NCBI GenBank assembly: GCA_038087875.1
Contig: CM075987.1
Span: 16,246,001-16,310,000, forward strand
Direction of reading: 5' to 3'
DNA: 64,000 nucleotides
DNA from: Malacoraja senta
Lineage: Eukaryota
This document shows, piece by piece, positions 11,741 to 52,727 of this stretch. Position numbers and translations under genes: made by a program. The notes below the pieces were generated by a model. The model saw only the letters and a list, made by a program, of their open reading frames with translations. It did not search any database and was not told the origin of the DNA. The first letter of the stretch is position 1, and the number at the start of each line of letters is the position of its first letter.

Positions 11741-11940
11741 AAGATAGACACAAAATGCTGGAGTAAATCAGCAGGACAGGCAGCATCTCTGGAGAGAAGG
11801 AATGGGTGACATTTCACATTGAGACCCTTCTTCAGAGCTTCATTCCTTCTCTTCAGAGATGCTGCCTGTCCTGCCAAGTTACTCCAGCATTTTGTGTCTA
11901 TCTTCGGTTTAAATCAGCATCTGCAGTTCCTTCCTACACA
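11741..11940 (+). mobile_element. PLE-derived fold-back element
   Basis: Inverted short arm plus full arm with tail; TSD TC(T/A)TAGTTGTGTA at 11728-11740 and 11941-11953. Confidence 0.8.
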
Positions 11941-12590
11941 TCATAGTTGTGTAGACAAGCAAAAATCACAAGGGGCCATTGAGTTGGAGGGAGTGCAGAT
12001 GAGGATGACCAGAATGATGCCTGGAGTAGATGGTATTAGCTACAAGGCGAGGTTGGACAAAGTTGGATTGTTTTCTCTGGAATGTCGGACACTGAGGGAA
12101 GTCCTGGTCGAAGTATATAAAATTATGAGAGGCATAGATAGGATGTTCAGTCAGTACCTTTTTCCCAGGATGCAAAGTTTAAAGGAAATATGCAGGGCAT
12201 TTTTTTAATGTAGAGAGTGGTGCAGAGTTCTATATTTTCTCTCTCTCGTTCTCGCTTTCTATCACGCAAGCTTTACAGCTTGTATATTTCACAGAGTGTC
12301 CTCCTGGAGCATAATAGGATACAACACTTTGATGGATTTTTCATATCAGATTTTATTTGTTTGGTGTACACTTTCCATCACTGTTAAAAAAGAAACATTG
12401 CAGTAGGCTTTTTGCAAGACACCATCACTCCACCTGACTAAGTGGAAACTGTTCCAATATCAACAAATTGATACATTATGAAACTCTCCACAGAGAGAAG
12501 CTTCCACCAGAAAGCTATGGAAGCAGATACAATTACATCTCTCAAAAGACATTTGGACAGATATATGAATAGGAAGGTGTTAGAAGGTTA

Positions 12591-13115
12591 CTAGAGCAAG
12601 TGGGACCCGTTGGGTCCCTGTCACATGTGAGGCCTGGTCCCCCAACGCAACCCGTTCCCCCAACGCAATATTCAACCACTCACCCATAGCGCCCGCAGGA
12701 GGCCTGGTCCCCCGACGCAACCCGTTTCCCAACGCAATATTCCAGCACTCACCCGTTCCCCCAACGCAACCCGTTCCCCCAACACAATATCCCACCACTC
12801 ACCATAGCTCCCAGCTGCACAGGGGCTGCTCATTTCGCCTTATTCGCCCTCCCTCATTTAAAACTTTTAAAAATATTCAGTGTTCTGTGACTTCTAGAGA
12901 TAGCAGGACTCAGTGTACTTGGATAGCAACAATGTTTGCAAGCAGGGTTACAATCCCATTGTGACGTCATAGCTGTAAGCACAGGGAAGACATTTTTCTC
13001 AAATTGGGGTTTTGTAAATCTAAAAAAGTCAATAGCTTGTGAAATATAACATCAATCTGAACGAAACCTGACACAAAAGAACCACAGGACAATTGTGATT
13101 AAGGTAGTGCAAAAA
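12591..13115 (-). mobile_element. Non-autonomous Helitron-like element (3' end clear, 5' end uncertain)
   Basis: Minus strand ends GGGACCC-AAC-GGGTCCC hairpin (12602-12618), then ACTTGCT-CTAG|T. Internal CCCCAACGCAACCCGTT repeats. Interrupts a CR1 tail with no visible TSD. Confidence 0.55.
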
Positions 13116-15556
13116 AGCAACAAAAAGCTTTTCACTGTACATGATAATAATAAATTAAACTAAGACTAAACTAAACTAAGATGGGACTAGCCCAGTACGA
13201 CAACTTGTTCGGCATGGACAAGTTGGACCAAAAGATCTGTTGAATGAATCTAGTTGACATGAACTTCCATGGCTTTCCCTTACCGTAGTTGACAGAACCC
13301 TGCCTACATTTTATCTATCTCCCAACACTCTGCTCTCACTCCCTCTCTAATTATTTTATAAGTATATAAAATTATGAGATGCATAGATGAGGTAGACCGT
13401 CAGAGCCTTTTTCCCAGGGTGGAAATGTAAAAGACTAAGGGGGCTTAGCTTCAAGGTTGATGCACGTCCCACAGCATTGAAATTCACAACTCCAGGTCAC
13501 GTTAAGGGACCTGCTTCAGATTGATTGGAGCCTGAAGAAGAGTCCTGACCCAAATGTCATCTGTCCGTTCCCTCCATCGATGCTGCCTGACCCGCTGAGT
13601 TCCTCCAGCACTTAAGTGTTTTGCTCAAGGTTCCTGCCATCCACAGTTCTTTGTTTTCTGTTGGCCTGGGACAGCTGCTGCCTGACCTGCTGGATGTTTC
13701 CAGCATTTCTCCATTCATTTCAGATATCCGGCATCTGCAGTCTGAGTTCCCTTTAATATTACAGTCACTTAAAATCCTGCATCATTCAGTGAATGTCCAT
13801 AGACACCCACACAATCACATTGATACAATTGACAGTAGACCATTTTGTAGGCATTTGGAAGAATGGTAAGATTAATCTTTAAAGGAGTAGAAATGTTACA
13901 GAAGATGGGACCAAAAAAATGTGTCTCTGGTGTTATTTATCCAGCTTGTTTTGGCCAGATATCGTACTTTGTTCCCACGTTTCTTCCTAGTATTTATTGC
14001 CAATGTAATTATTTATGGATACAGTTAAATTACATTATTTTACAATGGCAATAGCCCATTTCATTAAAAAAAAAATTCACAGCTCAAATAAAACGAAAAG
14101 AGACCAGTTTGACACAAACACATTTGCTTTTCATCTGATAAAATCAGTCACTATCATTTCTCGGTTCAATTTCTTGCGAGTGGCTGAAATAACATTCATA
14201 CCATTGAAGCGGAGAAGCTGGTCATCAGAATGACTGCAGCAAATGATTTAATTTGAGATTGCGTGGCAGTCAGTGACAAGAATCAGGCAAAAATATATTA
14301 AACAGTGAACTTCACAGAAATGCGAGATGAGCTAAAAAGAACCAGCAGAGCAGCACAATGGAGAGATTTCACAATGTTGGCATCCATTGGTGACCTTAGT
14401 GAATAGTTTAGTTTATTTATTGCCATGTGTACTGGCATGCAGTGTAAAGCTTGTTCTGCATGCTATCCATGAAATCACACCATACATGAGTACCATGGAC
14501 CAGCTTCTAGACCAGCACACAGAGAATCGCCATATCCCAACATCATCATGCAACTTCCAAGACTCTGAAAAGTCTGATCTTGGCCCAAGGAGATGTGCAG
14601 TTTCTTGTTTTCACACTTTAGCACCCAGTGTCCTGGCGGCACTGGATTGATGAGGTAGTTGAAATAGATACAATAACAACATTTAAAAGGCATTTTGGCA
14701 GGTACATGGATCAAAAAGATATGGGCTTAGAAGAGGCGCCTTGGTGAGCATGGACAAGTTGGGCTGAAGGACCTGTTTCAATGCTGCATGACTCCATGGT
14801 ACAACCTGAAAACAAAAGCTAACATCCTAAAAATTAGAAAATAATTCTGGCTTTTAGTAGAGCCTTTCACTGCTTCAAGGGAGCAAATAAATTACTTTGT
14901 TATATGACATTAGATTTCAGGCTTTCCATCAACGCACTAGAATCTGATGGCATCGATGGTTCAATGGTGATGGTCAACTGGAGTGGGCCGGGATGATGTA
15001 CCAGTAGGACAATGGCCAATGCAATCAGTACAAGTGGATTAAATCAACAATTTGGTGATACAATGGTATTGAGAAGAAATTCAAGTTATTTTGACACACA
15101 CTCAGTCATGGTCATGGGACTAACCCACACTCCAGAGACTTGGCCTAATTCAAACCCCAGTGTGATATTAAGGTAGCACTGTTGTATGTGACCAGATAAT
15201 ATCCCCAGGCTTCCTCAGGTCAAAGGCAAAGCAGCCAGGGTAGTCTTTAAACCAGTAAAATTTCCCAGTTTATTAAATCATGAGGGGAATAGATAGGATG
15301 CATACAGAGTCTTTTCCCCAGTGAAGTCAAGGACCAAATGGTTAGGATGAGAGAGGAACCTAATGGAACCTAAGGGCAACATTTTCACACCGAGGATGGC
15401 GAGTGTATGGAATGAGCTGCCAGAGGAGGTAATTGTGGCAGGTACTGTAACACCATTTAAAAGACATTTGGATAGGTACATGGATATGAACAGTTTAGAG
15501 GGATATGGGCCAAATGCAGGCAAATGGGACAGAAGTGTCCAGTTCCCCCAGTACTT

Positions 15557-15766
15557 GTGTAGGAAGGATCCGCAGATGCTGGTTTAAACCGAAGATAGAC
15601 ACAAAAAGCTGAATAACTCAATGGGACAGGCAGCATCTCTGGAGAGAAGGAATGGATGACGTTTCGGGTCGAGGTCTGAAGAAGGGTCTCAACCCGAAAC
15701 ATCACCCATTCCTTCTCTCCAGAGATGCTGCCTGTCCCACTGAGTTACTCCAGCTTTATGTGTCTA
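15557..15766 (-). mobile_element. PLE-derived fold-back element
   Basis: Two inverted arms; TSD TCCCCCAGTACTT at 15544-15556 and 15767-15779. Confidence 0.85.
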
Positions 15767-16887
15767 TCCCCCAGTACTTTGTCTTTTGCTCAAGATTCCA
15801 GCAGCTGCATGTTCCTTGTGCGTCAAATAAATTGATGGATCAACCAACATTGATTTCCCTGCTCTAAGACATTATTATGCCAACTTGAATAGTCTGAAGT
15901 ATTTTGATTGAAGTGAGAGGAATGACCTTGTTTCCTCTATCTGCACAGCAATTCACAATACCATTCAATGATATGAAAGGGACCTTAACATACAACTGAA
16001 GTGGCAGTATGATTAGATAAGATGGTGAAGTAACATATGGGATAGTGTTTTCATTAGCTGGGAGGTAGAATAAAGCAGGGAGTAAAGCAGGAGTTTGGTA
16101 CAACTTTATAGAACGTTTCTTGAGCCATGGCGGCTGTACTGCGTGCCGTTCCGATCACCACGCTGGAGGAAGGACATGATTTTATGGGAGAATGTGCAGA
16201 GATTCATCAGGCAGTTGCCTACATTAGAACATTTCATTTACTAGGAGGGACAGGGTAGGCTGGGTTTATTTTCTTTGGAGTGGAGGAGGTTGAGGAAGGA
16301 ACAAATGCAAGTAATGCATTTATTTTCCCCATAGCTGAGGTATCTGAAATTAAATGGCATAGGCTTAGACAGAGTGATTAGATAGGTTGTCACCTGAAAC
16401 ATGCTGCCCGTGCGGGTGGTGGAAATGGAGACTCACAAGATTTGTGAATGATCAAGATAAGCGCCTGAACTGTTAGCACTTAGAAGGCTACAGACCAAGT
16501 GCAGGTGAAGGAGATGTAGGTGGAAAGATTTCCATAGAAAGGTTGGTGGGTTTACGGGATGAGCTGCTGCAGGGAATAGTTGAGGCACTTGCACTTAGAA
16601 AGTTTAAAGGACATGTGGACAGGAACATAAATAGGAAAGGTTTAGTGGGATATGGGCCAAATGCAGGCACGTGCAATTAGTGTAGGTAGGCACCTTTTCT
16701 TTACCGATACAAGTATTTTATTTGAAAAGTTATGCATTACAGCAAGAACTATCACTATTCAGCAACATTTAGCAATGACCTAATTAAGCAACAAACTAGA
16801 GACAGTAGCATCAGCAAAATGCTGCTTATAATATAGGCATCTTGGTCAGCATGGGATGAAGGGTCAGTTTCCATGTTGTGTAACTCT

Positions 16888-17021
16888 ATCTTCTTCTTGC
16901 ATATGGTGTGCACAGCCCAAAGTTGTAGGTCAACATATTTGATCTATTTGTTTGTGCACGTCGGGTTGATTGCATTAGTCGAAACAGGGTGGACCATGTG
17001 AAGGTTGCAATCTCCCACCCC
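16888..17021 (-). mobile_element. 134-bp short retroposon with (AGA)n tail
   Basis: TSD GTGTAACTCT at 16878-16887 and 17022-17031; minus strand ends CAAGAAGAAGAT; no tRNA head recognised. Confidence 0.6.
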
Positions 17022-19850: not shown

Positions 19851-21404
19851 TATAACTAAACACTTGGACAGATACATGGTTGGGAAAGATTTAGAGGGAT
19901 ATGGGCCAAACGGGGGCAAATGGAATGAGCTTAGATGATGGCCTCTTGGTCAGCATGGATGAGTTGGGCCGACGGTTCCATGCTGTGTCACTTTATAACA
20001 TTATATTTTGAATCTTCATGGTGTGTATGAGGAATGACATTATCATCCTTTATCTGTAAAACATTAGCCTATTGCTTCAGCGGTCTTCCCCCGCTGTCAG
20101 AACGCTGCATATTTATCTTGTTGAACCCTGTGATCCAACGTGACATGTTGCATGATATTCCAGCGCAGTATCGATCCACTGTGAAATCCAGGTTCTTGCC
20201 ACAGAAACGATTTTGACATTTGTGATCCATTTGTTCAGTCTGAGAGGGATTACAAACTTCCACCATGGAGCTTTAATGCTTGTTTTAAAACGACTGCTGC
20301 ATTTACACAAACAGATGGTGTCCTGCATGGATTTGCCCTACTTTACCAGCCCCTCTAAAGCCGCTACAATCTGATTTTGTTTGTTGTTAAACTGACAGCA
20401 TTTTGCTACGTCAGTCGCTCCAAGCAAAGGATATTTTGAAAGGCAGAGACAGATAGATTCATGATTAATGTGGGCGTCAGTAGTAGACCATTCGGCCCTT
20501 CGAGCCAGCACCACCATTCAATATGATCATGGCTGATATTCTGAAATCAGTACCCCGTTCCTGTTTTTCACCATATCACTGATTTCTTTAGTCACTAAGA
20601 GCTAAATCTAACTTGAGAACATCCTGTGAATTGGCCTCCACTTGCCTTCTGTGGCAGAGAATTCCACAGATTCAGCAATTGTAAGTAGTTGCTTAAAAAA
20701 ATTAAATTTTTATTCAGTTTACATCTGGAGTGAGGCTCCATCTGCTGGACAGTTAAATATTTATTTTGTATGATCTGAACCCCATATTAGTCACTGCTAA
20801 ACTCCCCAGTGCTCAAGTCCCCAGTCATGCTTCAAGCATATTTGTTAGCTGTAGGCAACCAGAAGCAAGACCTGGGCTCCTAAGATTCAGGTGTTAAGGA
20901 AGAACATCTGTAGCTGAGCAATCCACAGATAACAGGACACCTCTATCCATCAAACCCCACACCTGACTGCCCCTCAGATGCCAGGACATACTTCCCCACC
21001 GAACCACAAACCTTAATGTCCCCAGAAGTCCCAAATCTCACCTTCCTCCTGCCAGAGACCACAAATCTCACATCCCTGCGATCTTCAAAACCCACTGTTG
21101 TACAGACCCCCAAACTCACTGCTGCAAAGGGTCCCAAAAGCTTACTGCACCCAGGAGACCTGCAACCTCACTACCACTCTGACCCCAAAATTCATTGTCC
21201 TCCAGAGACTTCGAACATACAGGCCCCAGACACCCGAAATGTTGCCCCACAACCCCAAACACAGTCTCCAGTGGACCCAAACATCAATGTCCCCAGTTTC
21301 CAAAATATAAAATCTTTCAAACTCTCGAACTCACTGCCCAGACCTTTCAAACACTGGCCCATGGACCTCAAAATATACTGTCCTTTGGAGCTCAAAACAC
21401 ACCT

Positions 21405-21634
21405 GTGTAAGAAGGAACTGCAGATGCTGGTTTAAACCGAAGATAGACATAAAAAAGCTGGAGTAACTCAGCAGGACAGGCAGCATCTCTGGAGAGAAGG
21501 AATGGGTGACGTTTCGGGTCGAGACCCTTCTTCAGGCTTCTTCTTCTGAAGGCCTCGATCCCGAAACATCATCCATTTCTTCTCTCCAGAGATGCTGCCT
21601 GTCCCGCTGAGTTACTCCAGCTCTTTGTGTCTAT
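21405..21634 (-). mobile_element. PLE-derived fold-back element with intact hammerhead core
   Basis: TSD CTCAAAACACACCT at 21391-21404 and 21635-21648; inverted arms. Confidence 0.88.
21508..21535 (-). ncRNA. Minimal hammerhead ribozyme core (PLE type)
   Basis: Minus strand CUGAAGA-A-GGGU[CUCG]ACCC-GAAA-CGUC. Confidence 0.7.
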
Positions 21635-21920
21635 CTCAAAACACACCTCTCTGAACCCCAAATCATTTGTAAACTTCACTGTCCCTGGCTCCAAAATAGA
21701 TTCAGATTCTGATTAGTTTATTATATACACCAGGGCTGCAATCAAACACCTTGTGTACATGAAGCTCATGGAGTAAACAGTATACGTGCATTAATGACTA
21801 TAACTATACATACAAGCACGAGTAGAAAGCAGCAAAATGGTGCGAGGTTGTCGTGCAATCTGAAGCAGTGTGAAATAATATTAAAGTTCAATAACAGAAT
21901 GATGTAGAGTTAAGAGTTAA

Positions 21921-22607
21921 GGGCCTGTCCCACTTACGTGTCCTTGGCACGCAAATTACGCGACCTCGTGGTCGCGTTGAGGGCGTCGTATGGCTGCGCG
22001 GGGCCGGTCCCACTGAGAAGCGCGGAGGGGTTTGGAGTTGTGCGCAATATTGCGCGGGGCTCCGAAATTTTTGTAGTGAACAAAATCTTCGCACGCCAAC
22101 GGCCTGTCGCGTAACTGACGGCCAAAGTGGGACAGGCCCAAGACCCTGGCGCGACGCAACGTCTCACCTCCAACAGCAGCAGAAGCAGGCAAACGATCGC
22201 CGAACTCGGCCTGGGGCTCACGGCCGTTGCGGATCCGGATCCGCCCCCACTTCTACTCCCAGAGCGGGGCCAAGAAAATTGAAGATGGACACAAAATGCT
22301 GGAGTAACTCAGCGGGACTGGCAGCATCTCTGGAGAGAAGCAATGGGTGACGTTTCGGGTCAAGAACCTTCTTTTCAGACTGAAGAAGAGTCTCGACACG
22401 AAACGTCACCCATTGCTTCTCTCCAGAGATGCTGCCAGTCCCGCTGAGTTACTCCAACTTTGTGTCCATCTTCAAATGGCGTCACGTGCTCCAGACGGCT
22501 GTGCGTACGCATGAAATCGCGCGCGACCTTCGCGGGACCGTCGCGGCTCAACGCGACCATAGGGTTGCGTGATTTGCGTGCCAAGGACACGTAAGTGGGA
22601 CAGGGGC
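21921..22607. mobile_element. CpG-rich MITE with ~61-bp TIRs flanked by TTAA (PIF/Harbinger- or Kolobok-like), carrying a PLE fold-back at 22279-22475
   Basis: TTAA-GGGCCTGTCCCACTTACGTGTCCTTGGCACGCAAAT... matches the reverse complement of 22547-22607, which is followed by TTAA. Confidence 0.85.
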
Positions 22608-22639
22608 TTAAGAGTACATGGCAGCACTTCCGGCAATTG

Positions 22640-26132: not shown

Positions 26133-27519
26133 ATCAGTGCTTGTCAGTCACTGCATCCTGATGATCAGTGTCCAGGGGCATAAGCACAAGGGTATGTAAA
26201 GTACAGTGAAAGGGGTCAGCTCGTACAGTGAAATGCTTTTGTGGCGTGCTGACCAGACAGCGGAAAGACAATACATGATTAACACATTGTGTTTCACACG
26301 TGTTCAAACCATTGTTATCATTATCCCACTTGCCCAGTGCAGGCAAGAGGAAAGAGCAATCACAGCGGATGTACATGAGAGAGAGAATAGGTTGCAGAGA
26401 AAGAAGGAAAGACTATTGGGAGGAACCTACACCCGAAGGGCTGAATGGCCTCCTTCTGCATCATAGCAAGTGAGCACCTAAATCAAAATTAAAAAAAGAA
26501 TGTTAAATCTCCATCAGGCACCAGTTTAGCTGGAATACTCTGTCTGCTTCTGGGCAAACACTTCAGGAAGGTGTACGAGTGCTGACATTTCCAGAATTGC
26601 AATCACATACAGTATATTTGCACAGGTACATAGATAGAAAAGGATTAGAGGGATGTGAGCAGATGGGACTAGTTTAGATGGGACTTCTTGGTTGCCATGG
26701 ATGAGTTGGGCTGAAGGACTGGTTTCCCTGCTGTGTGACTCTGCGGATACAAGGAAGAGAGAACTTCGGTTACGTGTACAGTCTAGACTGCGGTAGCAAG
26801 ATGTAGATGTCAGGGAAGTACAGATGCTGAATCTTGAACAAAACACTGAATGTTGGTGGAACTTAGCAGCTCAGGCAGCATCTGAGGAGGGAATCGGCAG
26901 GCGGTGTTTCAGGTGGGCCCTTTCTTCAGAGTCTGAAGAAGGGTCCTGACCCAATACGTCGCCTGTCCATTCCCTCCAAAGATGCTGCCTGACCTGCTGA
27001 ACCTCTCCAGCACTGGTGTGTTTTCGGTGTCAGTGGAGGTGGTGCAAACTAGAATGAGTTTTGACGGGAATAATTAATAAGAAACCATTGGCCCCTGTAG
27101 AGAATCTGAGAACAATGACAAAAGAATTACTTAGAGATGGGAAATGCTTTTAGCCTGAAAACCACATTGGGATTGCAATTCCTGCCAGGGTGGTGGAAGC
27201 AGAATTGCTGTAACTTTCTGCAGGGATTTGAATAAAATGGTTGATGGAAAAGCACATCAGAACAATGGGGAAAGAGAATGGGGCAAACTGGCTGACTCTG
27301 TCACCGAGTCAGGTCAGTGTGGGATCCAAATGGCCTTTCCCAGTGCTGTGTTCCGGACATCCATGAGTAGTGGACGTTTCCGAGTTTCCCTTCTGCTCCC
27401 GAATCGTCCTCTCTCCCCTACTTGGGCAACGCATGAAAACACCCAGAAAACATTTAAAAACATAACAAGAACATGACAAGTTTTTTTTTTTAAACACTCT
27501 CAGGAATTCTACAAACAAA

Positions 27520-30209: not shown

Positions 30210-31113
<904 letters not shown>

Positions 31114-33247: not shown

Positions 33248-33805
33248 CAGCACAGTGGAGCAGCTGTTAGAGTCGCTGCCTCACGGCGTCAGAGACCCAG
33301 GTTTGATCCTGCCCTTGGATGCTTTCCATGTGGAATTTTTGAATGCTTTCCCTGTGACCAGGTGGGATTCCTCCGGGTGCTCCGGTTCCCTCCCATATCC
33401 CAAAAGACGTGTGAATTTGTAGGTTAATTGGCCCTCTGTAAATTACTCTTAATGTGTAGGGAGTGGATGCAAAAGTGGGATATTGTAGAATTAGTATGAA
33501 TGGGTGATCGATGGTCAGTGTGAACCTGGAGGGCCTTGGTGAACTTTGTGTCCGAAGAGCCTGTTTCCATGCTGTATCTCTGAAGGTAGACAAAAATGCT
33601 GGGGAAACTCAGCGGGTGCGGCAGCATCTATGGAGCGAAGGAAATAGGCAACGTTTCGGCCCGAAACGTTGCCTATTTCCTTCGCTCCATAGATGCTGCC
33701 GCACCCGCTGAGTTTCTCCAGCATTTGTGTCTACCTTCGAATTTCCAGCATCTGCAGTTCCTTCTTGAACATTGTATCTCTGAACTAAACTAAGCTAAAC
33801 TAAAC
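33248..33805 (+). mobile_element. HE1-like V-SINE whose tail is interrupted by a PLE fold-back element (33585-33772)
   Basis: SINE head and V-domain; TSD TGTATCTCTGAA at 33573-33584 and 33773-33784 around a near-perfect palindrome. Confidence 0.88.
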
Positions 33806-41345: not shown

Positions 41346-41377
41346 TATGACAGAGGGTGGGATTTGGGTCTCCATAC

Positions 41378-41619
41378 CTTCGTCCGGAGGCTATATCCCT
41401 GATTCCCAGCCAGGAGTCATCGACAGGTGGTGGGAGAGGAGTGCTACTGGTGGTGGTATTGATGTCCCCAATGATGTTTAAGGCTTCCTTCAGGGCATGA
41501 TACATTCGCAGCATCTCCTCACGTCGCTGGGCCTGCTCGGGAGACTCCTCCATCAGGACGTTCTGGTCCGCACAGGAGTAGAGCTGGGCAAGGAGCTCAG
41601 AGTGAATGAAGTCCTTTGT
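41378..41619 (-). CDS. DNM1: Dynamin-1 GED exon (242 nt)
   Basis: [57 protein letters not shown]...PPPVDDSWL. Acceptor GAACAG|, donor AG|GTATGG. Confidence 0.97.
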
Positions 41620-42859
41620 CTGTTCGGAATAAAATAAGGGAGCCCAGTTAGTCCTGACTTATTACCATTGGTTAGAATTAAATGGGTTATTCCAATAACG
41701 TGGAGAGTTATGGATGTTTGTGCCAGTTGTAACCCCTACCCTCTGCTCAGCCTTGTCCCACCATGAAGGGTAGACCATCATTTTAATCAATGCACATAGG
41801 CAGCACCAGGTGAAGACATTGACACACTCTGATGTCCTGACCACTTGATCTCCACTTCATTCTCCGCACAGCACTCTCACGAATAAACCTTACATCAGAG
41901 ATAAAGCACTTCCATTGGTTTCTTCTCCCGACATCTCCAACCTTCTTATCCTTTCACAAATAATGGCTAAACTACTCAGCTGTAAAGCAAAGGGCTAGGA
42001 TCTGGGTCACCATCAAGATTGGTCTCAAGCCTAAGTGCCGAAGTGGCTGAGGGTCAAGCAAAGGTTCCGGTTGAATTCTAACTCCAGGATCAATCCAAGA
42101 CTCAAGACCAGGGTAGAAGAATCGAGAACCAAAGGACATAGGATTAAGATGAGAGGAGCAGGACTTTGTGAGAATTATTTATTCTTTTAGAGGATGGTGG
42201 ATATATGGATGGAGCTGCCAGAGGAGGTAGCAGATGGAATAACACTTAAAAGATACTTGGACTAGTAGATGGATAGAAAAGGTTTAGTGGGATATGATCC
42301 AAATGCGGGCATATGGGACTAGCTTACATGGGACATCTTGGTCGGCATGGATGAGTTGGGCTGAATGGCTTGTTTCCGTGCTGTGCAACTCTGTAATGGA
42401 GGTATTGATTGTGGTCCAAGACCAAATCCAGACCCAGGATCAGGATTGGGGGCTAGGCCATCCCTGGAACATCCTGGCCTGATTTGCCTCCAAGCTAATC
42501 CTAGACACCAGCGGCAGATAAAACTAAGTGGTCAATCCAAGCTGAAACCTTCCCCTGATGTAGACAATTATCAGAAACGAGTTTGCCAGCGTTGCCACAA
42601 AATGGCAAGTCTTCTGAAACTAAAGACTTTCAATAATTGAAAGGAGGAACCCATGACCACTTCCGAGCCCGTGACCTGGATCCAAGTGGGATTGGAGTAA
42701 GGCTTCTGATTGGAAGGATGAGCTTGGTTTCGGATTCTTTCACCTACCACACTGGGAGTTAATGATTTAGGGGAAGCAGATGAAACATAAGAGGAGGCAA
42801 TGGGACATGGAGATGCCTCTGGATAGACAATGAACACCTCTCTTTGGCAGAGGTGTTCA

Positions 42860-43192
<333 letters not shown>

Positions 43193-43212
43193 TTATGGAA
43201 TTTACAGTAAAT

Positions 43213-43447
43213 TTTGTGTGGGAAGGAACTGCAGATGCTGCTTTATACCGATGATGGACACAGAGTGCTGGAGCAACTCAGCAGTTCAGGCAGCATCTCT
43301 GGAGAAAAGGAACAGGTAAAGTTTCAGGTCGGAACTCTTCCTCAGAATTGAGGAAGTCTGAGGAAGGGATCTGACCCAAAATGTCACGTGTTCCTTTTCA
43401 CCAGAGATGCGGCCTGAACCGCTGAGTTACTCCAGCACTCTGTGTTT
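43213..43447 (-). mobile_element. PLE-derived fold-back element
   Basis: Inverted arms; TSD ATTTACAGTAAAT at 43200-43212 and 43448-43460. Confidence 0.82.
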
Positions 43448-44514
43448 ATTTACAGTAAATGCTGCCTCAGGAGAAGACATTTACTCTCCACTGGAGAGAC
43501 CCAAGAGTGTCTCAATGCAAAGTGCTGAACTTATCACTTTGGAAATGTGGCCGTTTTTCCAACTCCAGCATCAAAATAACCTTACCAGGAGTTTTGAACA
43601 TTGAACCAATCTAAGGATATTAAAAAGTAGAGATTTTCAAAATCAACTGAGCAAGAGGAATCAAGAACCAGAGGACACAGGTTTAAGGTGAGAGGGGAAT
43701 TTTTTAATAGGGCCCGAGGGTGCTTGGTATAGGGAGTGAGCTGCCAGAGGAGGTAGTTGAGTACAATAATAGCATTTTAAAGATATTTGAACAGGTTCAT
43801 AAGTGAGAGGAGCAGAATTCGGCCATTTGGCCCATCAAGCCTACTCCACCGTTGAATCATGGCTGATCTATCTCTCCCTCCTCACCCCATTCTCCAGCCT
43901 TCTCCCCATAACCCCTGACACCCGTGCTAATCAACCCGTACTAATCAACTACCCATTCAGGTACAAGGATAACAAAGGTTTAGAGAGATATGGACTAAAA
44001 GGGGGCTAATGGGTTTATGTAAGGTGATGCATCTTATGGACAGGTTGGGCCGAAGGGATTGTGTCCGTGCTGCATGACTCTATGAAACTCTTTTAAGACG
44101 TCTGCATGCTGCATGACTCTATGAGCCTCTTTTAAGAAGTCTGCATGACTCTATAAGACTCTTTTAAGAAGTCTCCTGCTTCTAGGAACACCATAAAGAT
44201 ATTGGAATCTGTGAAGTTATTCACATGATCTTGGGAGCACCTTGAATTATATAACCAATGCTCATACCCCCCCCCCCAGAAATATTCTTGGTTCAATAAG
44301 GTCACTGAAATAATTCATATGGTTGTGGGATTCTCATTGAATTCACGCAGTGTAGATATCCCCAGAGTCAAGTTACAGAGTCACTGAAAACATTCACATG
44401 TCCTCAGACCCACTGAAATTATATGTAAATGCTTACATTCCCTCCTACAAATATGCGCGCACACCCCCAACCAGATAAGACATACTTTCCCCATTCATCC
44501 CCAGGTTAACATCT

Positions 44515-44790: not shown

Positions 44791-45299
44791 AGGAAATACT
44801 GTTGTTTGAAAATCTATGCTTCAAACTAAATCACTTTCAACTCAATAGTTTTGGAAAACAGAGAATTCTTTTGGTTCTATTTTTATTTTAATTAAAGCTT
44901 ACATTCGACCTCACTGTATGGAAGCTTGTGATGCAGATTTGACCCAAGCTGAGGAAAGGTCACAACAAAGAAAAGTTTCTCTCAATGTGGACTCTTTCTC
45001 CGGGCTAAGTTTCTAGCACCATCAAGAATAGAACAAGAAAGGCTCTTTCAACCCATCTCACCAGCTAATTCCACAGACTGTGTATAACCTTGACTCCTCA
45101 AGGGCTCTAACCATAATATTTACTCTCCTGAGGGAATGTTCTGTGTAAATAGTTCCTAATCCCCAAAGGAAGTGCTGCATTAAGGCAGAATTATCCATCC
45201 CCCCTCACCCTCCACTCTGTCCCTCCCGGGACATTTCTCCCACAACCACTCAGGCAACTGTTGATACTTGTGAAGAACTCCAGGGTGGTACAAAGAAGG

Positions 45300-45565
45300 T
45301 CAGCGGTAGTTGCAGCCTTACAGCACCAGAGATCTGGGTTCGATCCTGATTACGGCTGCTGTCTGTACGGAGTTTGCACGTTCTCCCCTTGATCGCGTGG
45401 GTTTTCTCTGGGAGCTCCGGTTTCCTCCCACACTCCAAAGGCGTACTGGTTTGCAGGTTAATTGGCATCGGTTAAAAAAAATTGCAAATGTGTCGCTGGT
45501 CGGCTTGGACCGAAGGGCCTGTTTCCGCGCTGTATCTCTACACTAGACTAAAAAAAAACTAAACT
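45300..45565 (+). mobile_element. HE1-like V-SINE
   Basis: GGTTCGATCC B-box, V-domain, LINE tail with (CTAAA)-like end. Confidence 0.82.
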
Positions 45566-46567
45566 CCACAGAATTCCTAGAGGATGGAAGCTGAGAATCC
45601 TTTTCCAAGGTTGGAGAGCAGAGAGCTGGAGAACATTGCCTCAAGATGAGAATTAGGACTGAAGTGAAGGGAGACGGCAAAGCTGTGGATGTTGATCCCA
45701 TTCTGCACCACCATCAATAGGTTCTCAGATTTGGAAATCACTCCAGGAATGTATTCATTCTTTTCCTTCAGAACAGAAGCCAGGGCTGCCCCCTGATAAT
45801 GAATAGTATCTCGTTCATGAATGCCAGCTTCATCAAAGCTCCTTGCTCCCTCTCTTATCCACACATCATCACAGTGCCCCACTTCCACACAGCTGATTGG
45901 AAAGAGAACAGAACTTTTGTAGACACAAGAAATTGCAGATGCTGGAACCTTCAGTAAAGCACAAAGTGCTGGAGGAACTCAGTGGGTCAGGCAGCATCTG
46001 TGCAGGGAACGGACAGTTGACGTTTTGTGTTAGATTTAGATTTAGTTCTTAGGGCTAAAGGAATCAAGGGATATCGGGGAAAAGCAGGAACGGGGTACTG
46101 ATTTTAGATGATCAGCCATGATCATATTGAAGGGCTAAATGGCCTACTCGTGCACCTATGTTTCTATGTGTTGGGGGCCTTCTTCAGACTGATCGTACCA
46201 GGGGGGAGAAAGCTGGCAAAGAAGTGAAGGTGGGACAAGCCTGGGAAGTGATAGGTAAATACAGGTGGGTTAGGGGGGGAAGGAGGATTTGATAGGCAGA
46301 TAGGTGGACAAAGGCCAGAGATTTAAAAAAAGCAAAAGGCTATGAGATAAGGAGATATAAGACAGAGGATGGGATATAGGTGGACGGAGATAGGGGAAGG
46401 GGAAAGGGGGTGGGATAGTGGGAAAGGCAAGTGGGGGGGCATGATTGTGGTGCGCATCCAGGTGGGGCACAGGGAAGAGAGGAGGGAAACAATAGGGGGT
46501 TGCCTGGATTACTGGTTGTGAATCAAAAAACACTTCCCCACCCTCCAAACAACAAAAAATAACAAAA

Positions 46568-46800
46568 TGTTCAAGAAGGAACTGCAGATGCTGGAAAATC
46601 GAAGGTAGACAAAAATGCTGGAGAAACTCAGCGGGTGCGGCAGCATCTATGGAGCGAAGGAAATAGGCAATGTTTCGGGCCGAAAGTCTGAAGAAGTCTG
46701 ATCAAGTCTGAAGAAGGGTTTCGGCCCGAAACGTTGCCTATTTCCTTCGCTCCATAGATGCTGCCGCACCCACTGAGTTTCTCCGGCATTTTTGTCTACC
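46568..46800 (-). mobile_element. PLE-derived fold-back element; intact hammerhead core on + strand at 46708-46735
   Basis: TSD CAACAAAAAA(T/G)AACAAAA at 46550-46567 and 46800-46817; CTGAAGA-A-GGGT[TTCG]GCCC-GAAA-CGTT. Confidence 0.88.
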
Positions 46801-47292
46801 AACAAAAAAGAACAAAAGCAGTAAATGTAAAATAGCAAAGATTGCATGACTTTTCCTCTGGGAGTTATTCTGGAAGCTCCAGGATAATCCTGTTGCATTG
46901 GGAATCCTGGTCCCTTTAAATGTGCAGACTCTGGTAATTGTGTATTCTACGTTCACAGGAAGTAACTGCTTCAGAGTTCATCTCAGTAACGGTCAGCCAG
47001 ATATACACAGGATAATTTACCACTTCTAGCCATTTGACAATTATTATGACTGTTCTTTATCGCCTCCCATTGCTTCCTGCTGCTAAGGAGACATACAAGA
47101 CATTGGTGAGGCTACACTTGGTGTATCGCGCTCAGTGTTAGTCACCCTGCCATAGGAAAGATGCCATTCAGCTGGAAAGAGTGCGGAGAAGATTTACGAG
47201 GGTGTTGTCAGGATTTGAGGGCCTGAGCTATAGGGAGAGGCTGCAGGGTAGGACTTTATTCCTTGGAGTACAGGAGGCCGAGTGGTGATCTT

Positions 47293-47993
47293 TTTTTAAA
47301 ATAATATTTTTATTAGGGGCAGGTACATATCATATTGAAAACATTTCATGTATTTCATTCCTACATTACTAATATTATCGATCGATATTCGCGCTGCCTC
47401 TAGTAGTTTAAAAAAAATATATAGATAGAAAATAAGAGAATAGCAGATAAAGAAAAAAAGGGATAATAAAGAAGAATGGAATAACTTACTAAAAGTACAA
47501 CATTGGAGATATATTCGTACATTTTAAAATATAACTTTTCATCTAATCCTTGATTCGAGTTTCAGTCAGGTTCTCGTGTCGAACCAGTCTGTCCCTTCAA
47601 GTAGTCAATAAATGGAGACCATGTTCTGATAGTTCATGTTTGTCCATTAGGACAAATCTAATTCTTTCCAAATGTAAGGTCTTCGACATTTCCATAATCC
47701 ACATTTTAATTGTGGGGGTTATAGGACCTTTCCAAAATTTTAATATTATTTTTTTTCCAGTTATTATACTATAATCGATAAAGTTTCTTTGAGTTGTTGT
47801 AAGTGTTTGACTTTGTTCTAATATTCCTAGTATTATTAATTTTGAATCAGGATCCAATTGAGTATTGGCAACTATAGATATTATTCTAAAAATGTCTGCC
47901 CAAATTGTTTTGATTTTTATACAATTCGCGAATGTATGAGTTAGGTTAGCATCTAAATGTTGACATTTATCGCAAATAGGGGAGATATGTGGT
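47293..47993 (-). mobile_element. 5'-truncated L1-clade LINE inserted in a CR1 fragment
   Basis: CCHC knuckle PICDKCQHLDANLTHTFANC and KKIILKFWKGPITPTIKMW. AT-rich 3'UTR with A-tail. 45-bp duplication at 47248-47292 and 47994-48038. Confidence 0.88.
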
Positions 47994-49756
47994 GTAGGAC
48001 TTTATTCCTTGGAGTACAGGAGGCCGAGTGGTGATCTTATGGAGGTTTATAAAATCATGAGGAGAATAGAAAGGGTTAATTTAACAGGCTGCCAGGTGAA
48101 GTACTTGAGGCAACTTCAACAACATTTGAAAGACATTTGGACAGGTGCGTGGATAATAAATGTTTAGATAGATTTTGTATCTCTCTAAATGGGCTAAATG
48201 TGGTCAAATGGGGCACCTTGGCAGCATGGATGAGTTTGGCTGAAGAGCCTGTTTCTGTGCTGGATGACTCCATGATTATAAGTGCTGACATTTTCAACGT
48301 TAAGTCCCGATCTCATAGAAAAATCTTTTGAAAATTAATGTCCTGTCTTATAAATGGAGACAGGGTGTAATTCTGGAGTGAAGTGGCGTGGGGTTGCCAT
48401 GCCAACATAAGTGAATCCTCCCACTCTTGGACTGGTGAGGTTCATAAGATATAGGAGCAGGATTAGGCCATTTGGCCCATCAGGTCTACTCCGCCATTCA
48501 ATCGTGGCTGATCCATCTTTCCCTCTCAACCCCATTCTCCTGTCTTTTCCCCCCATTACCACTGACACCCTTACTAATCGAGAATCTGTCAAAATCTCTG
48601 CATCAAAAATACCCAAATGTCTTGGTCTCCACAGCCGTCTGTGGCAATGAATTCCACAGATTCACCATCCTCTGACTGAAGAAATTCCTCCTCATCTCCT
48701 TTCTAAAGGTACGTCCATTTATTCTGAGGTCATTTATTCTGGTCCCTGACTCTCGTACAAGTGGAAACATCCTCACCACATCCACTCCATCCAGGCTTTT
48801 CAGTGGGCCCACTTAGGTCAGCAACACTGTTGTAGCCATGCAGGCAGGGCCGGCCTTAAGCCGATTGGACCAATTGCTCCCAATTGGGCCCCGCGCCAGA
48901 GTAATCTACTCTCGGCTCGGGTAGATCTAGCCCGGGTGGAGGGGGGAGAGAGGGGTGGAGAGAGAGTAGAGGGGTGGAGGGGGGAGAGAGGGTGGAGAGA
49001 GAGTAGAGGGGTGGAGGGGGAAGAAAGGGATAGACGGGGAGGGGTGTGTGAAGGGGAATGGAGAATGGGGAGAGGGGGAGGTGGGTTGTTCCCTCACGGT
49101 CCCGGGGCAGCGCTCCCGCCCCTCCAGTCGCCGTGCTTCACGCACACGGTCCCGGCTCCACCCCTCTCTCTCCCCAGGGAGACGCGGTGAACAATACAGG
49201 GTGGGCCGGGCCGGGGGTTGGAGCAACGTTTACAAACATCGGCCTCAGCTCACACATGTCCGCTCGGACCCCGGCATCCACTCCTGCCACCAGCCCTCTC
49301 CGTCCCTTCTCTCCTTCCCTTCCCTCCCTCCCTTCTCTCCTTCACTTCCCTCCTTCCTCTCTCTCTTGTCCCTTCTCTCCTTCCCTCCCTCCCTTCTATC
49401 TCTCCTTCCTCTCTCTCTTTTCCCTTCTCTCCTTCTCTCCCTCCTTTCTCTACTTCCCTCACTCCCTTCTCTCCTTCCTCCCTTCTCTCCCTCCCTTCTC
49501 TCCTTCCCTCCCACACACACACATACATAACGCACAGACAACTAACACACACATATCACGCACAGACAACGAACATACACACAACTAAGACACACACACA
49601 ACTAAGTTAGGATGGGGCAGAAGCCCAAAGGGTAGGATGGGGCTGAAGTCCAAAATTTAATGCCTGGACTGGTTTTTCGCCAATTGGTTTTCTAGGATCT
49701 TGTTAATTAATTTTTTTTTTTCATTTCACAGTCACTTAAACAAGTGGTATTGTAAC

Positions 49757-51183
49757 TTTTACAATACCACAATGTAACGAATAGTGGTATTTGTATTTAC
49801 CAAATACAAGGCGTAGCTATGGGCACGCGCATGGGCCCTAGCTATGCCTGCCTCTTTGTAGGGTACGTCGAACAATCCTTGTTCGAGACGTACCAGGGCC
49901 CCATTCCCGACCTCTACCTCCGCTACATCGACGACTGCATTGGTGCTACCTCCTGCACCCACACACAACTCACTGACTCCATCCATTTCACCACTAACTT
50001 CCAACCGGCACTCAAATACACCTGGACCATTTCCGACACTTCCCTACCATTTCCTGACCTCACTATCTCCATCGCAAGTGATAGACATCTGACCGACATC
50101 CACTATAAACCTACTGACTCCCATGGCTATCTGGACTACACTTCTTCCTGTAAGGACTCTATCCCCTACTCCCAATTCCTCCGTCTTCGCCGCATCTGCT
50201 CCCAGGATGAGGTGTTCCATACCAGGGCATCGGAGATGTCCTCATTCTTCAGGGAACGGGGGTTCCCCTCTCCTACCATAGATGAGGCTCTCACCAGGGT
50301 TTCTACGATACCCCGTGACACTGCTCTCTCTCCCCATCCCCCCACTCGTAACAAGGGCAGAGTCCCCCTAGTCCTCACCTTCCACCCTACCAGCCGTCAC
50401 ATACAACAAATATTCCTCCGTCATTTTCGCCACCTCCAACGTGACCCCACCACTTGCCACATCTTCCCATCTCCTCCCCTGTCTGCTTTCCGCAGAGACC
50501 GCTCCCTCCGTAACTCCCTGGTCAATTCGTCCCTTCCCACCCGAACCACCCCCTCTCCCGGCACTTTCCCTTGCAACCGCAAGAAATGCTGCACTTGTCG
50601 CTTTACCTCCCCCCTTGACTCCATTCAAGGACTCAAGCAGTCGTTCCAGGTGCGACAGAGGTTCACCTGCACCTCCTCCAACCTCATCTATTGCATCCGC
50701 TGCTCTAGATGTCAGCTGATCTACATCGGTGAGACCTCCGCTCGGTTTCGCAATAACCAACCTGATCTCCCGGTGGCTCAGCACTTCCACACACCTTCCC
50801 ATTCCGAATCCGACCTTTCTGTCCTGAGCCTCCTCCACGGCTAGAGTGAGGACCATCGGAAATTGGAGGAGCAGCACCTCATATTTCGCTTGGGCAGTTT
50901 GTACCCCAGCGGTATGAACATTGGCTTCTCTAATTTCAGGTAGTCCTTACTTTCTCCTATCCTTCTCAGCTCTCCCTCAGCCCTCTGGCTCCTCCTCTTC
51001 CTCTCCTCTCCCTTTCTTCTTCCCACACCCCCTCCCCACCACCCTCACATCAGTCTGAAGAAGGGTTTTGTCCCGAAACGTTGCCTATTTCCTTCGCTCC
51101 ATAGATGCTGCTGCACCCGCTGAGTTTCTCCAGCATTTTTGTGTACCTTCGATTTTCCAGCATCTGCAGTTCCTTCTTTAACA
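49757..51183 (+). mobile_element. 5'-truncated Penelope-like retroelement (RT + GIY-YIG) with terminal repeat, hammerhead core (51055-51082) and tail
   Basis: TSD TGGTATTGTAAC at 49745-49756 and 51184-51195; coding evidence in the next feature. Confidence 0.92.
49801..50943 (+). pseudogene. PLE reverse transcriptase C-terminal half plus GIY-YIG endonuclease, inactivated
   Basis: QIQGVAMGTRMGPSYACLF, YLRYIDD, HYKPTDSHGYLDY, NLIYCIRC...YIGET. The KRRLGDRFAEH segment seen at 61.4 kb is deleted here, and there is a premature TAG at 50842-50844. Confidence 0.9.
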
Positions 51184-52218
51184 TGGTATTGTAACCATGT
51201 ACTTTTCAGAGGTGATCTACACATTTTGTTTGTTACTTGTAGGCTTACATGTGTGCAATTTTATATTAAAATGTAGCTTAGATCTGTTTGGTCCATTAAC
51301 TCGCAGGCATTTTTTAAGCGCACATTTTGATTACTTTCCATTCTACCATAGAGATATAAAGTCTATAATAGACTTTATTTGTATTCCTTTGATTCTGCAG
51401 ACCTTGGCTGGGAACCTGGGGCTCACCAAAATTGTTCCCAATTGGGCCCCGCACCTCCTAAGGCCGGCCCTGCATGCAAGGCAATCTCCACTCAGACTAC
51501 ACAACACCAGCATTATTCAAGAGCAGCCACACCCCTCATGTGACTTGTGTGGGAATCCAGATATAGCTGAGTGCCCTTTTGAAAGCAATAATCGTGTCAC
51601 CAACACCACTAGGGTGTAGGTGTGGGATCATAACTGGCGAAACAAAACCACTACTGGGTGTGGAATGAGATGTTAACATCATGGATGCATTTGAACTTGG
51701 TTAGACTGTAAGATTTGTTTTTTCCTTAAAGTGGAATGACTATTTTACCTCTGATTACTGAATGGAAGCAGGTGGTTGTTAAATAAATGGAGGTACATTT
51801 ACCTGAGTTGTGCAGAACAACTACTGTTGCTAAAATGGCAACTGGCAGCTCAGATGGTTGTGACCACAGCCTGGCATTTGGCAAACCAGTCATTTCTAGT
51901 GCAGCTTTCCCTCTGTCACGAATACCAAGGCTAAGAACACACATTAACATGGACATGCACTACGCTGATAACTGGGCATGCAACTAATCAAAGGCTAGGA
52001 AAACTTAAATGAGAGAAACACCAAAGACACAGGCAAAGCACAAAAACGGCTCAACATCATGCAAATCGAACACAGACAGACAGACAGACAGGCAAAACCA
52101 GAGTTAGAACATACAGGAAAAGGGAAGGAATCCAACTGCTGGTAATTCTGAAATCAGAAAGAGAGAGGAAAACTGGTTCTGTTTCAGAGAGGAGGTGAAG
52201 AGAGAGAAACCTACTTAC

Positions 52219-52230
52219 ATTTTCTTTATC
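52219..52230 (-). CDS. DNM1: Dynamin-1 12-nt microexon (DKEN)
   Basis: CTTTGGCCAG|GAT AAA GAA AAT|GTAAGT, phase 0/0. Matches the DKEK peptide preceding ASETEENGS in mammalian DNM1. Confidence 0.85.
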
Positions 52231-52606
52231 CTGGCCAAAGGTGACGCAAATTAAACCAATTAAAGGAGGAAGAAAATTCATTTATTGAATTAATCACCCA
52301 TTTAGCAACTAGGAGCAAAGAAAATCAAATCAAACGAATGGACAAGCTAAGCATTGTCAGTGTCACTGGAACTAAACCGATATCACAAGACCCACAAGAG
52401 CCAAAGCAATCATCGCAACAAAGGCCGCATCTTCTGCTTTCATGTTCATTTCAGAATTCCAGCGCCTCCTTCATTTTCTACGCCAAAAGGTTGCAACAGT
52501 CTGAAGAAGGGTCTCGACATGAAACGTCGCATATTCCTCCGCTCCATAGATGCTGCCTCACCCGCTGAGTTTCTCCAGCACTTTTGTCAACCAATGATGC
52601 GGGTAG

Positions 52607-52727
52607 GTAGACAAAAATGCTGGAGAAACTCAGCGGGTGAGGCAGCATAGATGCTGCCTCACCCGCTGAGTTTCCCCAGCATTTTTGTCAACCTTCGATT
52701 TTCCAGCATCTGCAGTTCCTTCTTAAA
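52607..52727 (+). mobile_element. Short PLE-derived fold-back element next to a monomeric copy (52497-52591)
   Basis: TSD CAATGATGC(G/T)GGTAG at 52592-52606 and 52728-52742. Confidence 0.8.

What the first reader, a model, noticed from the sequence alone, without database searches (positions are those of the whole stretch)
11741..52727. Family of tiny fold-back retroelements built only from Penelope terminal repeats and inserted as single units
Seen: at least seven 120-240 bp elements (11741, 15557, 21405, 33585, 43213, 46568, 52607) consist of two inverted copies of the sequence ending the PLEs at 51.1 and 61.7 kb. Each whole palindrome is bounded by its own 12-18 bp TSD. The asymmetry is stereotyped: one arm runs to ...CAGCATCTGCAGTTCCTTC(C/T)T..., while the other stops ~30-40 nt earlier at about TGTCTA(T/C). 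The apex position varies, and at least two subfamilies do this. Known: PLEs have pseudo-LTRs that can be inverted, plus a short 3' tail on one copy. Inference: these are minimal non-coding PLE insertions that look like MITEs but are retroposed. They are either very early aborted insertions or a non-autonomous, retrozyme-like system mobilised by the PLE RT/GIY-YIG protein. I cannot tell whether this is already catalogued.
Basis: partly seen in the sequence, partly recalled or inferred. Interest (0 to 1): 0.78.

Follow-up and report, generated by a model that had tools for sequence, protein, structure and literature searches.

The report
Hairpin stubs of Penelope-like retrotransposons
These short hairpin-shaped insertions are aborted insertion products of a Penelope-like jumping gene, a known kind of debris rather than a new self-copying element, although their junctions hint at how that gene's enzyme copies its RNA.

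Summary
All 7 elements are head-to-head pairs of the end of a Penelope-like element (PLE), each inside one 12-18 bp target-site duplication (TSD). One arm carries a ~35-nt tail. Two more pairs lack a clear TSD.

They are not a separate family. Both 3' ends, and similar TSDs, also occur on non-inverted copies of 86-1427 bp. All 9 apices differ, and at least 3 subfamilies make such pairs. Inverted terminal repeats with a one-sided tail are the published PLE signature, and close opposite-strand hammerhead pairs were reported in 2014. The scan noted such stubs before in other genomes (4 notes).

Best model: both nicked target strands prime reverse transcription at the two known internal start sites, and the two cDNAs join at their 3' ends. 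In 3 of 9 neither arm contains the other, which argues against simple fold-back.

Not found in the papers I searched: many copies stop at one 5' position, at the edge of the minimal hammerhead, and 4 of 9 apices repeat part of that end. Retrozyme and MITE tests fail. A new variant of a known kind; modest interest.

The parts
11741..11939 (.). Palindrome: short arm on - (11741-11835, from about +4), long arm on + (11841-11939, from +35); TSD 11727-11740 / 11940-11953
15557..15766 (.). Palindrome: long arm on - (from +16), short arm on + (from +2), blunt apex; TSD 15544-15556 / 15767-15779; inserted into an older terminal-repeat fragment near its short-end site
21405..21634 (.). Palindrome: long arm on - (from +1, preceded by a partial repeat of the 5' end), short arm on + (from about +4, small internal deletion); TSD 21391-21404 / 21635-21648
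33585..33772 (.). Palindrome: apex on the natural 15-nt near-palindrome +14..+28 (7-nt microhomology); TSD 33573-33584 / 33773-33784
43213..43447 (.). Palindrome of a third subfamily: long arm on - (from +3), short arm on + (from +1, preceded by a repeat of +5..+10); TSD 43200-43212 / 43448-43460
46568..46799 (.). Palindrome: long arm on - (from +15, read by eye), short arm on + (from +1, preceded by two extra 10-nt units of the 5' end, one imperfect); TSD 46550-46567 / 46800-46817
   Evidence: the automatic alignment over-extends this long arm
52607..52727 (.). Smallest palindrome: apex on a natural micro-hairpin at +49..+56 (3-nt microhomology); TSD 52592-52606 / 52728-52742; abuts the short end of the solo copy at 52498
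22276..22473 (.). Additional head-to-head pair; both arms stop at about +100 to +105 (no tail), share private variants; no TSD found
26812..27027 (.). Additional, old head-to-head pair (long + short arm, arms 31% apart); no convincing TSD
49757..51183 (+). 5'-truncated, broken PLE copy (part of RT, thumb, CX4CxxC linker, GIY-YIG, 3' region, terminal repeat with tail); long 3' end; 12-bp TSD; no inverted terminal repeat
61143..61800 (+). 5'-truncated PLE copy (linker + GIY-YIG + terminal repeat); short 3' end, no tail; 13-bp TSD; no inverted arm
51052..51085 (+). Minimal type I hammerhead-like motif in the terminal repeat: CUGAAGA core 51055-51061, helix II 51063-51074, GAAA, palindromic ACGU, predicted cut after 51082
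   Evidence: read from sequence against the description in PMC4209133; Rfam gave no hammerhead hit; activity not tested
51149..51183 (+). Tail between the short end (51147-51149) and the long end (51183)
   Evidence: loose-end pile-ups in public runs; bimodal 3' ends in the window
11200..11328 (-). Solo terminal repeat from about +1 to the long end, 14-bp TSD
57903..57988 (-). Solo terminal-repeat fragment ending near the short end, 10-bp TSD
52498..52591 (+). Solo terminal repeat from about +1 to the short end, directly left of the 52607 TSD; no TSD of its own found

Best explanation
Each palindrome is a one-off, abortive insertion by the RT/GIY-YIG protein of a Neptune-type PLE; it is not a copy of another palindrome. 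(1) The endonuclease nicks both target strands 12-18 bp apart. Inferred from the TSDs; nicking of both strands is shown in vitro for the anole PLE. (2) Each 3'-OH primes reverse transcription on the element's RNA, one at the long start site (+132) and the other at the short site (+96 to +98). Two start sites bounding the tail are shown in vitro for the anole PLE; their use as a coupled pair is inferred here. This alone gives the head-to-head layout with a tail on one arm. (3) Both cDNAs stop early, most often at or just inside +1, and are joined at their 3' ends bluntly or through 1-7 nt of natural micro-palindrome; repair fills the gap (inferred from the junctions). (4) If only one cDNA is kept, the product is a solo repeat or an ordinary truncated copy with either end (seen in the window). 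[quoted passage not shown]
For: Geometry and TSDs in 7 of 7. Both ends also occur on non-inverted copies with TSDs: long end at 51183 and 11200, short end at 61800. 3' ends are bimodal: 20 of 46 hits end at model 93-106, 21 at >=118, 1 between, 4 shorter. In a public poly(A) RNA run of an unnamed organism carrying the family, reads leave the reference into unrelated flanks at +96/97/98 (460/471/395 reads), +132 (836) and before +2 (430). Two contig sets show the +132 end and one shows the +1 end. 8 of 9 pairs are long+short, against 50% for independent choice (p=0.02). Arms of one locus differ by a median 7.8%, against 25% between loci (694 pairs; 0 of 20000 permutations). All 9 apices differ. 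In 11741, 15557 and 46568 the short arm holds 14-31 nt of 5' sequence that the long arm lacks, while the long arm holds the tail, so neither is a copy of the other. PMC11167929: both strands cleaved and extended, two RT start sites that bound the tail, predicted dimer.
Against: No experiment on this family; the in vitro data are for a Poseidon element. Later deletion at a hairpin apex could also leave arms that do not contain each other. The pair at 22276 has two short arms and no TSD. The pair at 26812 has arms 31% apart, and arms are tree sisters in only 3 of 9 pairs. No palindrome arm runs into the upstream pyrimidine tract (0 of 18 arms against 8 of 28 other hits; p=0.015), but this is not significant per locus (p=0.16). 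That tract maps poorly, which exaggerates the depth drop at +1. Only 15 of 324 joints and 21 of 2401 loose-end rows were shown.
Confidence: 0.62

Rival explanations
1. Same origin, different chemistry: one strand folds back and primes on itself (Arkhipova 2013 proposes self-priming on an antisense template). The hairpin is then trimmed asymmetrically by the endonuclease, leaving the tail on one arm.
For: Three apices sit on natural micro-palindromes (33585, 52607, 22276). The 5' junction of the PLE at 49757 holds an inverted copy of its own TSD, so fold-back copying happens in this family. PMC3846280 argues for self-priming; PMC8557442 attributes the tail to endonuclease resolution.
Against: In 3 of 9 pairs the short arm runs 14-31 nt further 5' than the long arm, so a simple fold-back of the long cDNA cannot give them. 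The 15557 apex is blunt, with no microhomology. A non-inverted copy ends cleanly at the short site with a TSD (61800). PMC11167929 maps the tail to two RT start sites.
Confidence: 0.24
2. A non-autonomous, retrozyme-like or SINE-like family: whole palindromes are transcribed and re-inserted as units by the PLE protein.
For: 44 of 46 terminal-repeat hits have no ORF upstream. The repeat is about 5-6 times deeper than the ORF 3' end in the RNA run and is read from both strands. PMC3846280 says the terminal repeats suffice in cis for mobilisation in trans.
Against: 9 of 9 apices are unique; long and short arms do not form separate clades; at least 3 subfamilies give the same layout. Only 1 of the 15 joints shown was on opposite strands (2 contigs, depth 194), a weak test because assemblies can break at palindromes. 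A transcript would fold into a hairpin of -74 to -171 kcal/mol, pairing away the hammerhead and start sites.
Confidence: 0.07
3. The pairs arose after insertion: by inverted duplication of solo copies, by apex deletion from longer inverted insertions, or from two independent adjacent insertions.
For: The 9450-9861 palindrome looks like a secondary inverted duplication: arms 91 of 91 identical, flank included, no TSD. Two palindromes sit in or beside older repeats, so adjacent insertions occur.
Against: One TSD frames the whole unit in 7 of 7. A duplicated solo could not yield arms that each hold unique element sequence. Adjacent hits are head-to-head in 9 of 14 cases, and arms share a subfamily in 8 of 9 pairs.
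Confidence: 0.07

Closest known systems
Inverted-pLTR insertions with a one-sided 30-40 nt tail of endonuclease-positive PLEs (Arkhipova 2013 PMC3846280; Craig 2021 PMC8557442; Schostak 2008 PMC2377424)
   Same: Head-to-head inverted terminal repeats, tail on one side, palindromes at the inverted junction, one TSD round the whole insert, RT + GIY-YIG parent.
   Different: The examples in the passages I read keep ORF sequence between the inverted repeats. Here nothing lies between them, TSDs are 12-18 bp (8-10 bp in the rotifer passages), and 18 of 46 repeat hits are in such pairs.
Poseidon element of the green anole, internal initiation at two sites (Frangieh 2024 PMC11167929)
   Same: Two ends about 35 nt apart bounding the tail; both lie by a stem-loop downstream of a hammerhead; no pile-up of ends at the predicted ribozyme cut; AT-rich targets (TSDs 67% AT).
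   Different: Different clade by linker motif. The main text I read does not describe repeat-only palindromes, coupled long+short use, or a fixed 5' stop.
Minimal hammerheads of metazoan PLE terminal repeats (Cervera and De la Pena 2014 PMC4209133)
   Same: Core, extra base before helix II, G-C first pair, palindromic ACGU in place of helix III. The paper notes dual motifs about 100-700 bp apart on opposite strands and many solos, ascribed to truncated PLEs.
   Different: That paper gives no TSD, arm-end or apex analysis in the parts I read.
Metazoan non-LTR retrozymes (Cervera 2020 PMC7229834; Li 2026 bioRxiv 10.64898/2026.07.22.740005)
   Same: Short, non-coding, type I hammerhead-bearing, related to PLE terminal repeats.
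   Different: Retrozymes are head-to-tail tandems with canonical hammerheads that release circular RNA. These are head-to-head, have minimal motifs, and hold only one sense motif per strand.
MITEs / foldback DNA transposons (recalled)
   Same: Small, non-coding, long inverted repeats, flanked by a TSD.
   Different: Ends are asymmetric, TSD length varies, size and apex vary, and the arms are a retroelement end.
LINE-1 twin priming
   Same: Both target strands prime cDNA, giving an inversion inside one TSD with microhomology at the junction.
   Different: In L1 the two primers copy non-overlapping parts of one RNA from variable sites. Here both arms copy the same stretch from two fixed sites.

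Membership tests
Endonuclease-positive PLE insertion | Arms are the terminus of an element encoding PLE RT and C-terminal GIY-YIG | tested here: met
   Arms match the ends of the copies at 49757 and 61143. The ORF is 51% identical to an 803-aa RT/GIY-YIG protein. Pfam GIY-YIG E=2e-4, just under the cut-off. ORF-bearing parents are in the window for one subfamily only.
Endonuclease-positive PLE insertion | Inverted head-to-head terminal repeat with a 30-40 nt tail on one side | tested here: met
   8 of 9 pairs; tail 34-36 nt from read ends
Endonuclease-positive PLE insertion | Variable-length TSD round the whole insert | tested here: met
   7 of 9 pairs, 12-18 bp; null 21 of 1500
Endonuclease-positive PLE insertion | Minimal hammerhead in the terminal repeat | tested here: met
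   Motif read from sequence against PMC4209133. No Rfam hit; helix II 73% paired without significant covariation; cleavage untested.
Endonuclease-positive PLE insertion | Partial-tandem full-length master copy (repeat-ORF-repeat) | not testable with these tools
   None in the window; no genome held
Penelope/Poseidon clade | No CX2-5CxxC linker between RT and endonuclease | tested here: not met
   CX4CxxC present in both ORF pieces; criterion from PMC8557442
Neptune/Nematis clades | CX2-5CxxC linker present | tested here: met
Neptune/Nematis clades | RT phylogeny groups with named members | not tested
   No named reference RTs were at hand
Non-LTR retrozyme | Head-to-tail tandem units each with a hammerhead | tested here: not met
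   Pairs are head-to-head; the 3 same-strand neighbours each involve a partial piece lacking the core
Non-LTR retrozyme | Canonical type I hammerhead | tested here: not met
   Minimal form, short helix I, no helix III loop
Non-LTR retrozyme | Monomer linear or circular RNA | tested here: inconclusive
   No place where many molecules begin or end, but the library is poly(A)-selected and from an unnamed organism
Non-autonomous element propagating as a unit | Same internal structure (apex) at many loci | tested here: not met
   9 of 9 apices differ; window only, and the read-based test was weak
MITE | Symmetric terminal inverted repeats, uniform size, fixed short TSD (recalled) | tested here: not met
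   Asymmetric ends, 121-235 bp, TSD 12-18 bp

The most novel reading that the evidence does not exclude
The palindromes are a fossil record of a PLE 'strong-stop' step. A dimeric RT primes from both target nicks at the two start sites in the 5' terminal repeat and runs off the transcript's 5' end at an initiator-like site after only about 97 and 132 nt. On reaching that end it realigns and re-copies a 5-10 nt unit, as its relative telomerase does. Normal insertions would arise when such a cDNA jumps to the 3' repeat; solos and palindromes are the failures. This would explain partial tandems, inverted repeats and the tail with one mechanism.
Probability: 0.3. Interest if true: 0.65.

Novelty: new variant of a known kind. 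Interest (0 to 1): 0.3.

Why it matters
As a family it matters little: these are PLE by-products that repeat annotation could mislabel as MITEs or miRNA hairpins (three gave sub-threshold hairpin-type Rfam matches). As evidence it is more useful. How PLEs make inverted repeats and tails is still open in the papers read. A genome dense in minimal products lets one count arm ends and apices and separate double priming from self-priming. The fixed 5' stop and the repeated 5' unit give a cheap prediction for the existing in vitro assay.

Tried and rejected
No whole genome is held, so no genome-wide census was possible. Pattern scans found no further loci: 0 in viral contigs, 0 in prokaryote genomes, and 6 in metagenomes, all matching only the 20-50 nt around the pattern and dropped as chance. 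Rfam gave no hammerhead match; its hits were sub-threshold hairpin and microsatellite noise. No RNA holder on record was listed. The raw DNA run laid only 17 reads and was uninformative.

Ribozyme cleavage as the source of the 5' end was considered. No arm or solo starts at +32, and no such loose end was among the rows shown; the row at +38 reflects a subfamily indel. A spliced intron ending at +2 (pyrimidine tract + CAG, as in D. virilis) was considered. The donor-like site is not at the same position in the two ORF copies, and no matching joint was among the 15 of 324 shown, so it is unsupported but not excluded.

Covariation: a stem between +52..+59 and the tail is 94% paired in 17 copies, but has no compensatory change and 26 of 500 shuffles do as well. 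Searches used mis-registered structure strings and are disregarded. Single-arm folds are unremarkable (z from +0.1 to -2.0). The first automatic TSD scan missed 3 of the 7 because its windows were misplaced; they were found.

Ten literature searches returned no paper describing repeat-only, TSD-bounded PLE palindromes in cartilaginous fish. Dfam, Repbase and subscription papers were not searchable.
Full report
Setting. The window is animal DNA. It holds a dynamin GED exon on the minus strand and a Tc1-like transposase. The closest named relative of the retroelement ORF is from a bamboo shark, 63% identical, so a cartilaginous fish is likely (inference). No whole genome is held. Positions below are counted from +1 = window 51052, the A of the motif TCAGTCT at the 5' edge of the hammerhead.

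Observation. All 7 elements are there. Each is two inverted copies of the PLE end, 3' ends outward, 121-235 bp, inside a TSD of 12-18 bp. All 7 reach a TSD score of 11-15, which 21 of 1500 random intervals reach. A profile built from 7 window copies finds 46 hits, some weak or partial. Of 14 adjacent pairs of hits, 9 are head-to-head: the 7 plus pairs at 22276 and 26812 that have no convincing TSD. Only 2 of the 46 have ORF sequence upstream, by blastn and by tblastn (hits of three relatives shown).

The parent. The copy at 49757-51183 encodes a broken RT-thumb-linker-GIY-YIG stretch, 51% identical to an 803-aa relative. The copy at 61143-61800 gives a Pfam GIY-YIG hit just under the cut-off. 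Both have a CX4CxxC linker, which Craig 2021 gives for Neptune and Nematis and not for Penelope/Poseidon (passages). No RT tree against named members was built. The terminal repeat carries a minimal type I hammerhead as described by Cervera and De la Pena 2014 (parts 1-2 of 4 read). Rfam did not detect it and its activity is untested.

Two 3' ends. Hits end at model position 93-106 (20 of 46) or at 118 and beyond (21 of 46), with 1 between and 4 shorter. Both ends occur without any inversion. The 1427-bp copy and the solo at 11200 use the long end (TSDs 12 and 14 bp); the 658-bp copy uses the short end (TSD 13 bp). In a public poly(A) RNA run of an unnamed organism that carries the family (12304 reads laid), reads leave the reference into unrelated flanks at +96, +97, +98 (460, 471, 395 reads) and +132 (836). 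Two contig sets show +132 too. Only 21 of 2401 loose-end rows were shown. The 34-36 nt between the ends is the PLE tail. Frangieh 2024 (parts 1-2 of 4 read) showed in vitro that an anole PLE cleaves and extends both target strands and starts at two internal sites that bound the tail. Its three text supplements had no hit for my terms, and I could not see its supplementary figures.

One event, many sources. Arms of one locus differ by a median 7.8%, against 25% between loci (694 pairs), and 0 of 20000 reshufflings of partners did as well. They share a subfamily in 8 of 9 pairs, but are tree sisters in only 3 of 9, and the 26812 arms are 31% apart. At least three subfamilies give the layout. Long and short arms do not form separate clades. 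Eight of 9 pairs are long+short, none long+long, one short+short (p=0.02 against independent choice).

Apices. All 9 differ. 5' starts, long arm / short arm: 11741 +35/+4; 15557 +16/+2; 21405 +1/+4; 33585 +14/+22; 43213 +3/+1; 46568 +15/+1; 52607 +49/+54; 26812 +3/+1; and 22276 -1/+4 (both short). Several were read by eye, because over-extends arms across self-complementary stretches. Three apices lie on natural micro-palindromes (3-7 nt shared), one shares 1 nt and one is blunt. In 11741, 15557 and 46568 the short arm holds 14-31 nt that the long arm lacks, while the long arm holds the tail. A single cDNA folding back cannot give that unless the apex was deleted later or the ends were trimmed afterwards.

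A fixed 5' stop. Seven of 9 pairs have an arm starting between -1 and +4, and 0 of 18 arms run on into the upstream pyrimidine tract, against 8 of 28 other hits (p=0.015 per arm, 0.16 per locus). Reads also leave the reference before +2 (430 reads) and, in one contig set, before +1 (38). Depth in the RNA run is about 5400 over the repeat and about 970 over the ORF 3' end. The tract between them maps poorly, and older ORFs may fall under the 80% cut-off. Four apices carry extra copies of the first 5-10 nt, read by eye (a strict pattern caught only 43213): two extra 10-nt units in 46568, partial units in 43213, 21405 and 11741. The site matches the initiator consensus (recalled), so I read it as the RNA 5' end, with the RT realigning there. 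It is also a splice-acceptor-like site and the edge of the ribozyme fold. In D. virilis an intron ends at that position and transcription starts 46 bp upstream of the intron (passages). These readings are not separated here.

Mechanism. Most likely (0.62): staggered nicks; both 3'-OH ends prime, one at each start site; the two short cDNAs are joined at their 3' ends. Steps shown elsewhere in vitro are two-strand nicking and extension, and two start sites. Shown here are the geometry, TSDs, both ends on non-inverted copies, long+short coupling and unique apices. Inferred are simultaneous priming, the joining step and run-off at an RNA 5' end. The main rival (0.24) is self-priming with asymmetric trimming, proposed by Arkhipova 2013 (passages). 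In its favour, the 5' junction of the 49757 copy contains an inverted copy of its own TSD. Propagation as a unit (0.07) fails on apices and arm trees. A whole-palindrome transcript would also form a hairpin of -74 to -171 kcal/mol. Only 1 of 15 joints shown, of 324, was on opposite strands, in 2 contigs; this is a weak test.

Against what is known. Inverted terminal repeats, a tail on one side and palindromes at the junction are the textbook PLE pattern (passages of PMC3846280, PMC8557442, PMC8969392, PMC2377424). Cervera 2014 already noted opposite-strand hammerhead pairs about 100-700 bp apart. Retrozymes are head-to-tail tandems with canonical hammerheads (passages of PMC7229834; parts 1-3 of 5 of bioRxiv 10.64898/2026.07.22.740005, supplements not seen), which these are not. 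Ten searches found no description of repeat-only TSD-bounded palindromes in cartilaginous fish, nor of a fixed 5' stop with repeated units. [quoted passage not shown] Four earlier notes of this scan report the same kind of stub in other genomes and reach a similar verdict; they are unchecked AI notes and not counted as support.

Verdict. Real, well above chance, and ordinary in kind: the minimal end of the known range of PLE insertions. The apex features are a modest, testable lead on the PLE replication cycle. Interest 0.3.

Noticed in passing
window 49757-49800: The 5' junction of the longer PLE copy starts with an inverted copy of its own left TSD, then a second altered TSD copy, before RT homology resumes near 49801.
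   Followed up: partly
window 9450-9861: A 412-bp palindrome whose arms (a decayed terminal repeat plus upstream flank) are identical over 91 of 91 nt, with a TA/CA microsatellite at the centre and no TSD: a secondary inverted duplication or an assembly artefact.
   Followed up: partly
window 15544-15819 and 52498-52742: Two of the seven palindromes sit at the short-end site of another terminal-repeat copy, suggesting the endonuclease favours its own repeat; the 52498/52607 cluster may be one three-arm event.
   Followed up: partly
window 46686-46715, 43347-43364, 21530-21546, 11836-11841: Extra copies of the first 5-10 nt of the terminal repeat at four apices, like realignment at a template end.
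   Followed up: partly
window 51103-51110 with 51157-51164: An 8-bp stem between the repeat and the tail is 94% paired in 17 copies across subfamilies; it encloses the short end and lies just before the long end. No compensatory changes.
   Followed up: partly
window about 41464-41658 (-): Exon encoding a dynamin GTPase effector domain (Pfam GED, E=1e-11); part of the window lies in a dynamin-family gene.
   Followed up: no
window 556-1312 (+): Broken Tc1/mariner-type transposase in two frames.
   Followed up: no
window 54188-54745 (-), 56740-57315 (-), 58702-59223 (+): Similar ORF fragments that look like CR1/L2-type LINE ends (recalled; the one scanned had no Pfam hit).
   Followed up: no
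ORF part of window 50300-50945: In the RNA run the ORF region shows a 2-3:1 strand bias while the terminal repeat is read equally from both strands.
   Followed up: no
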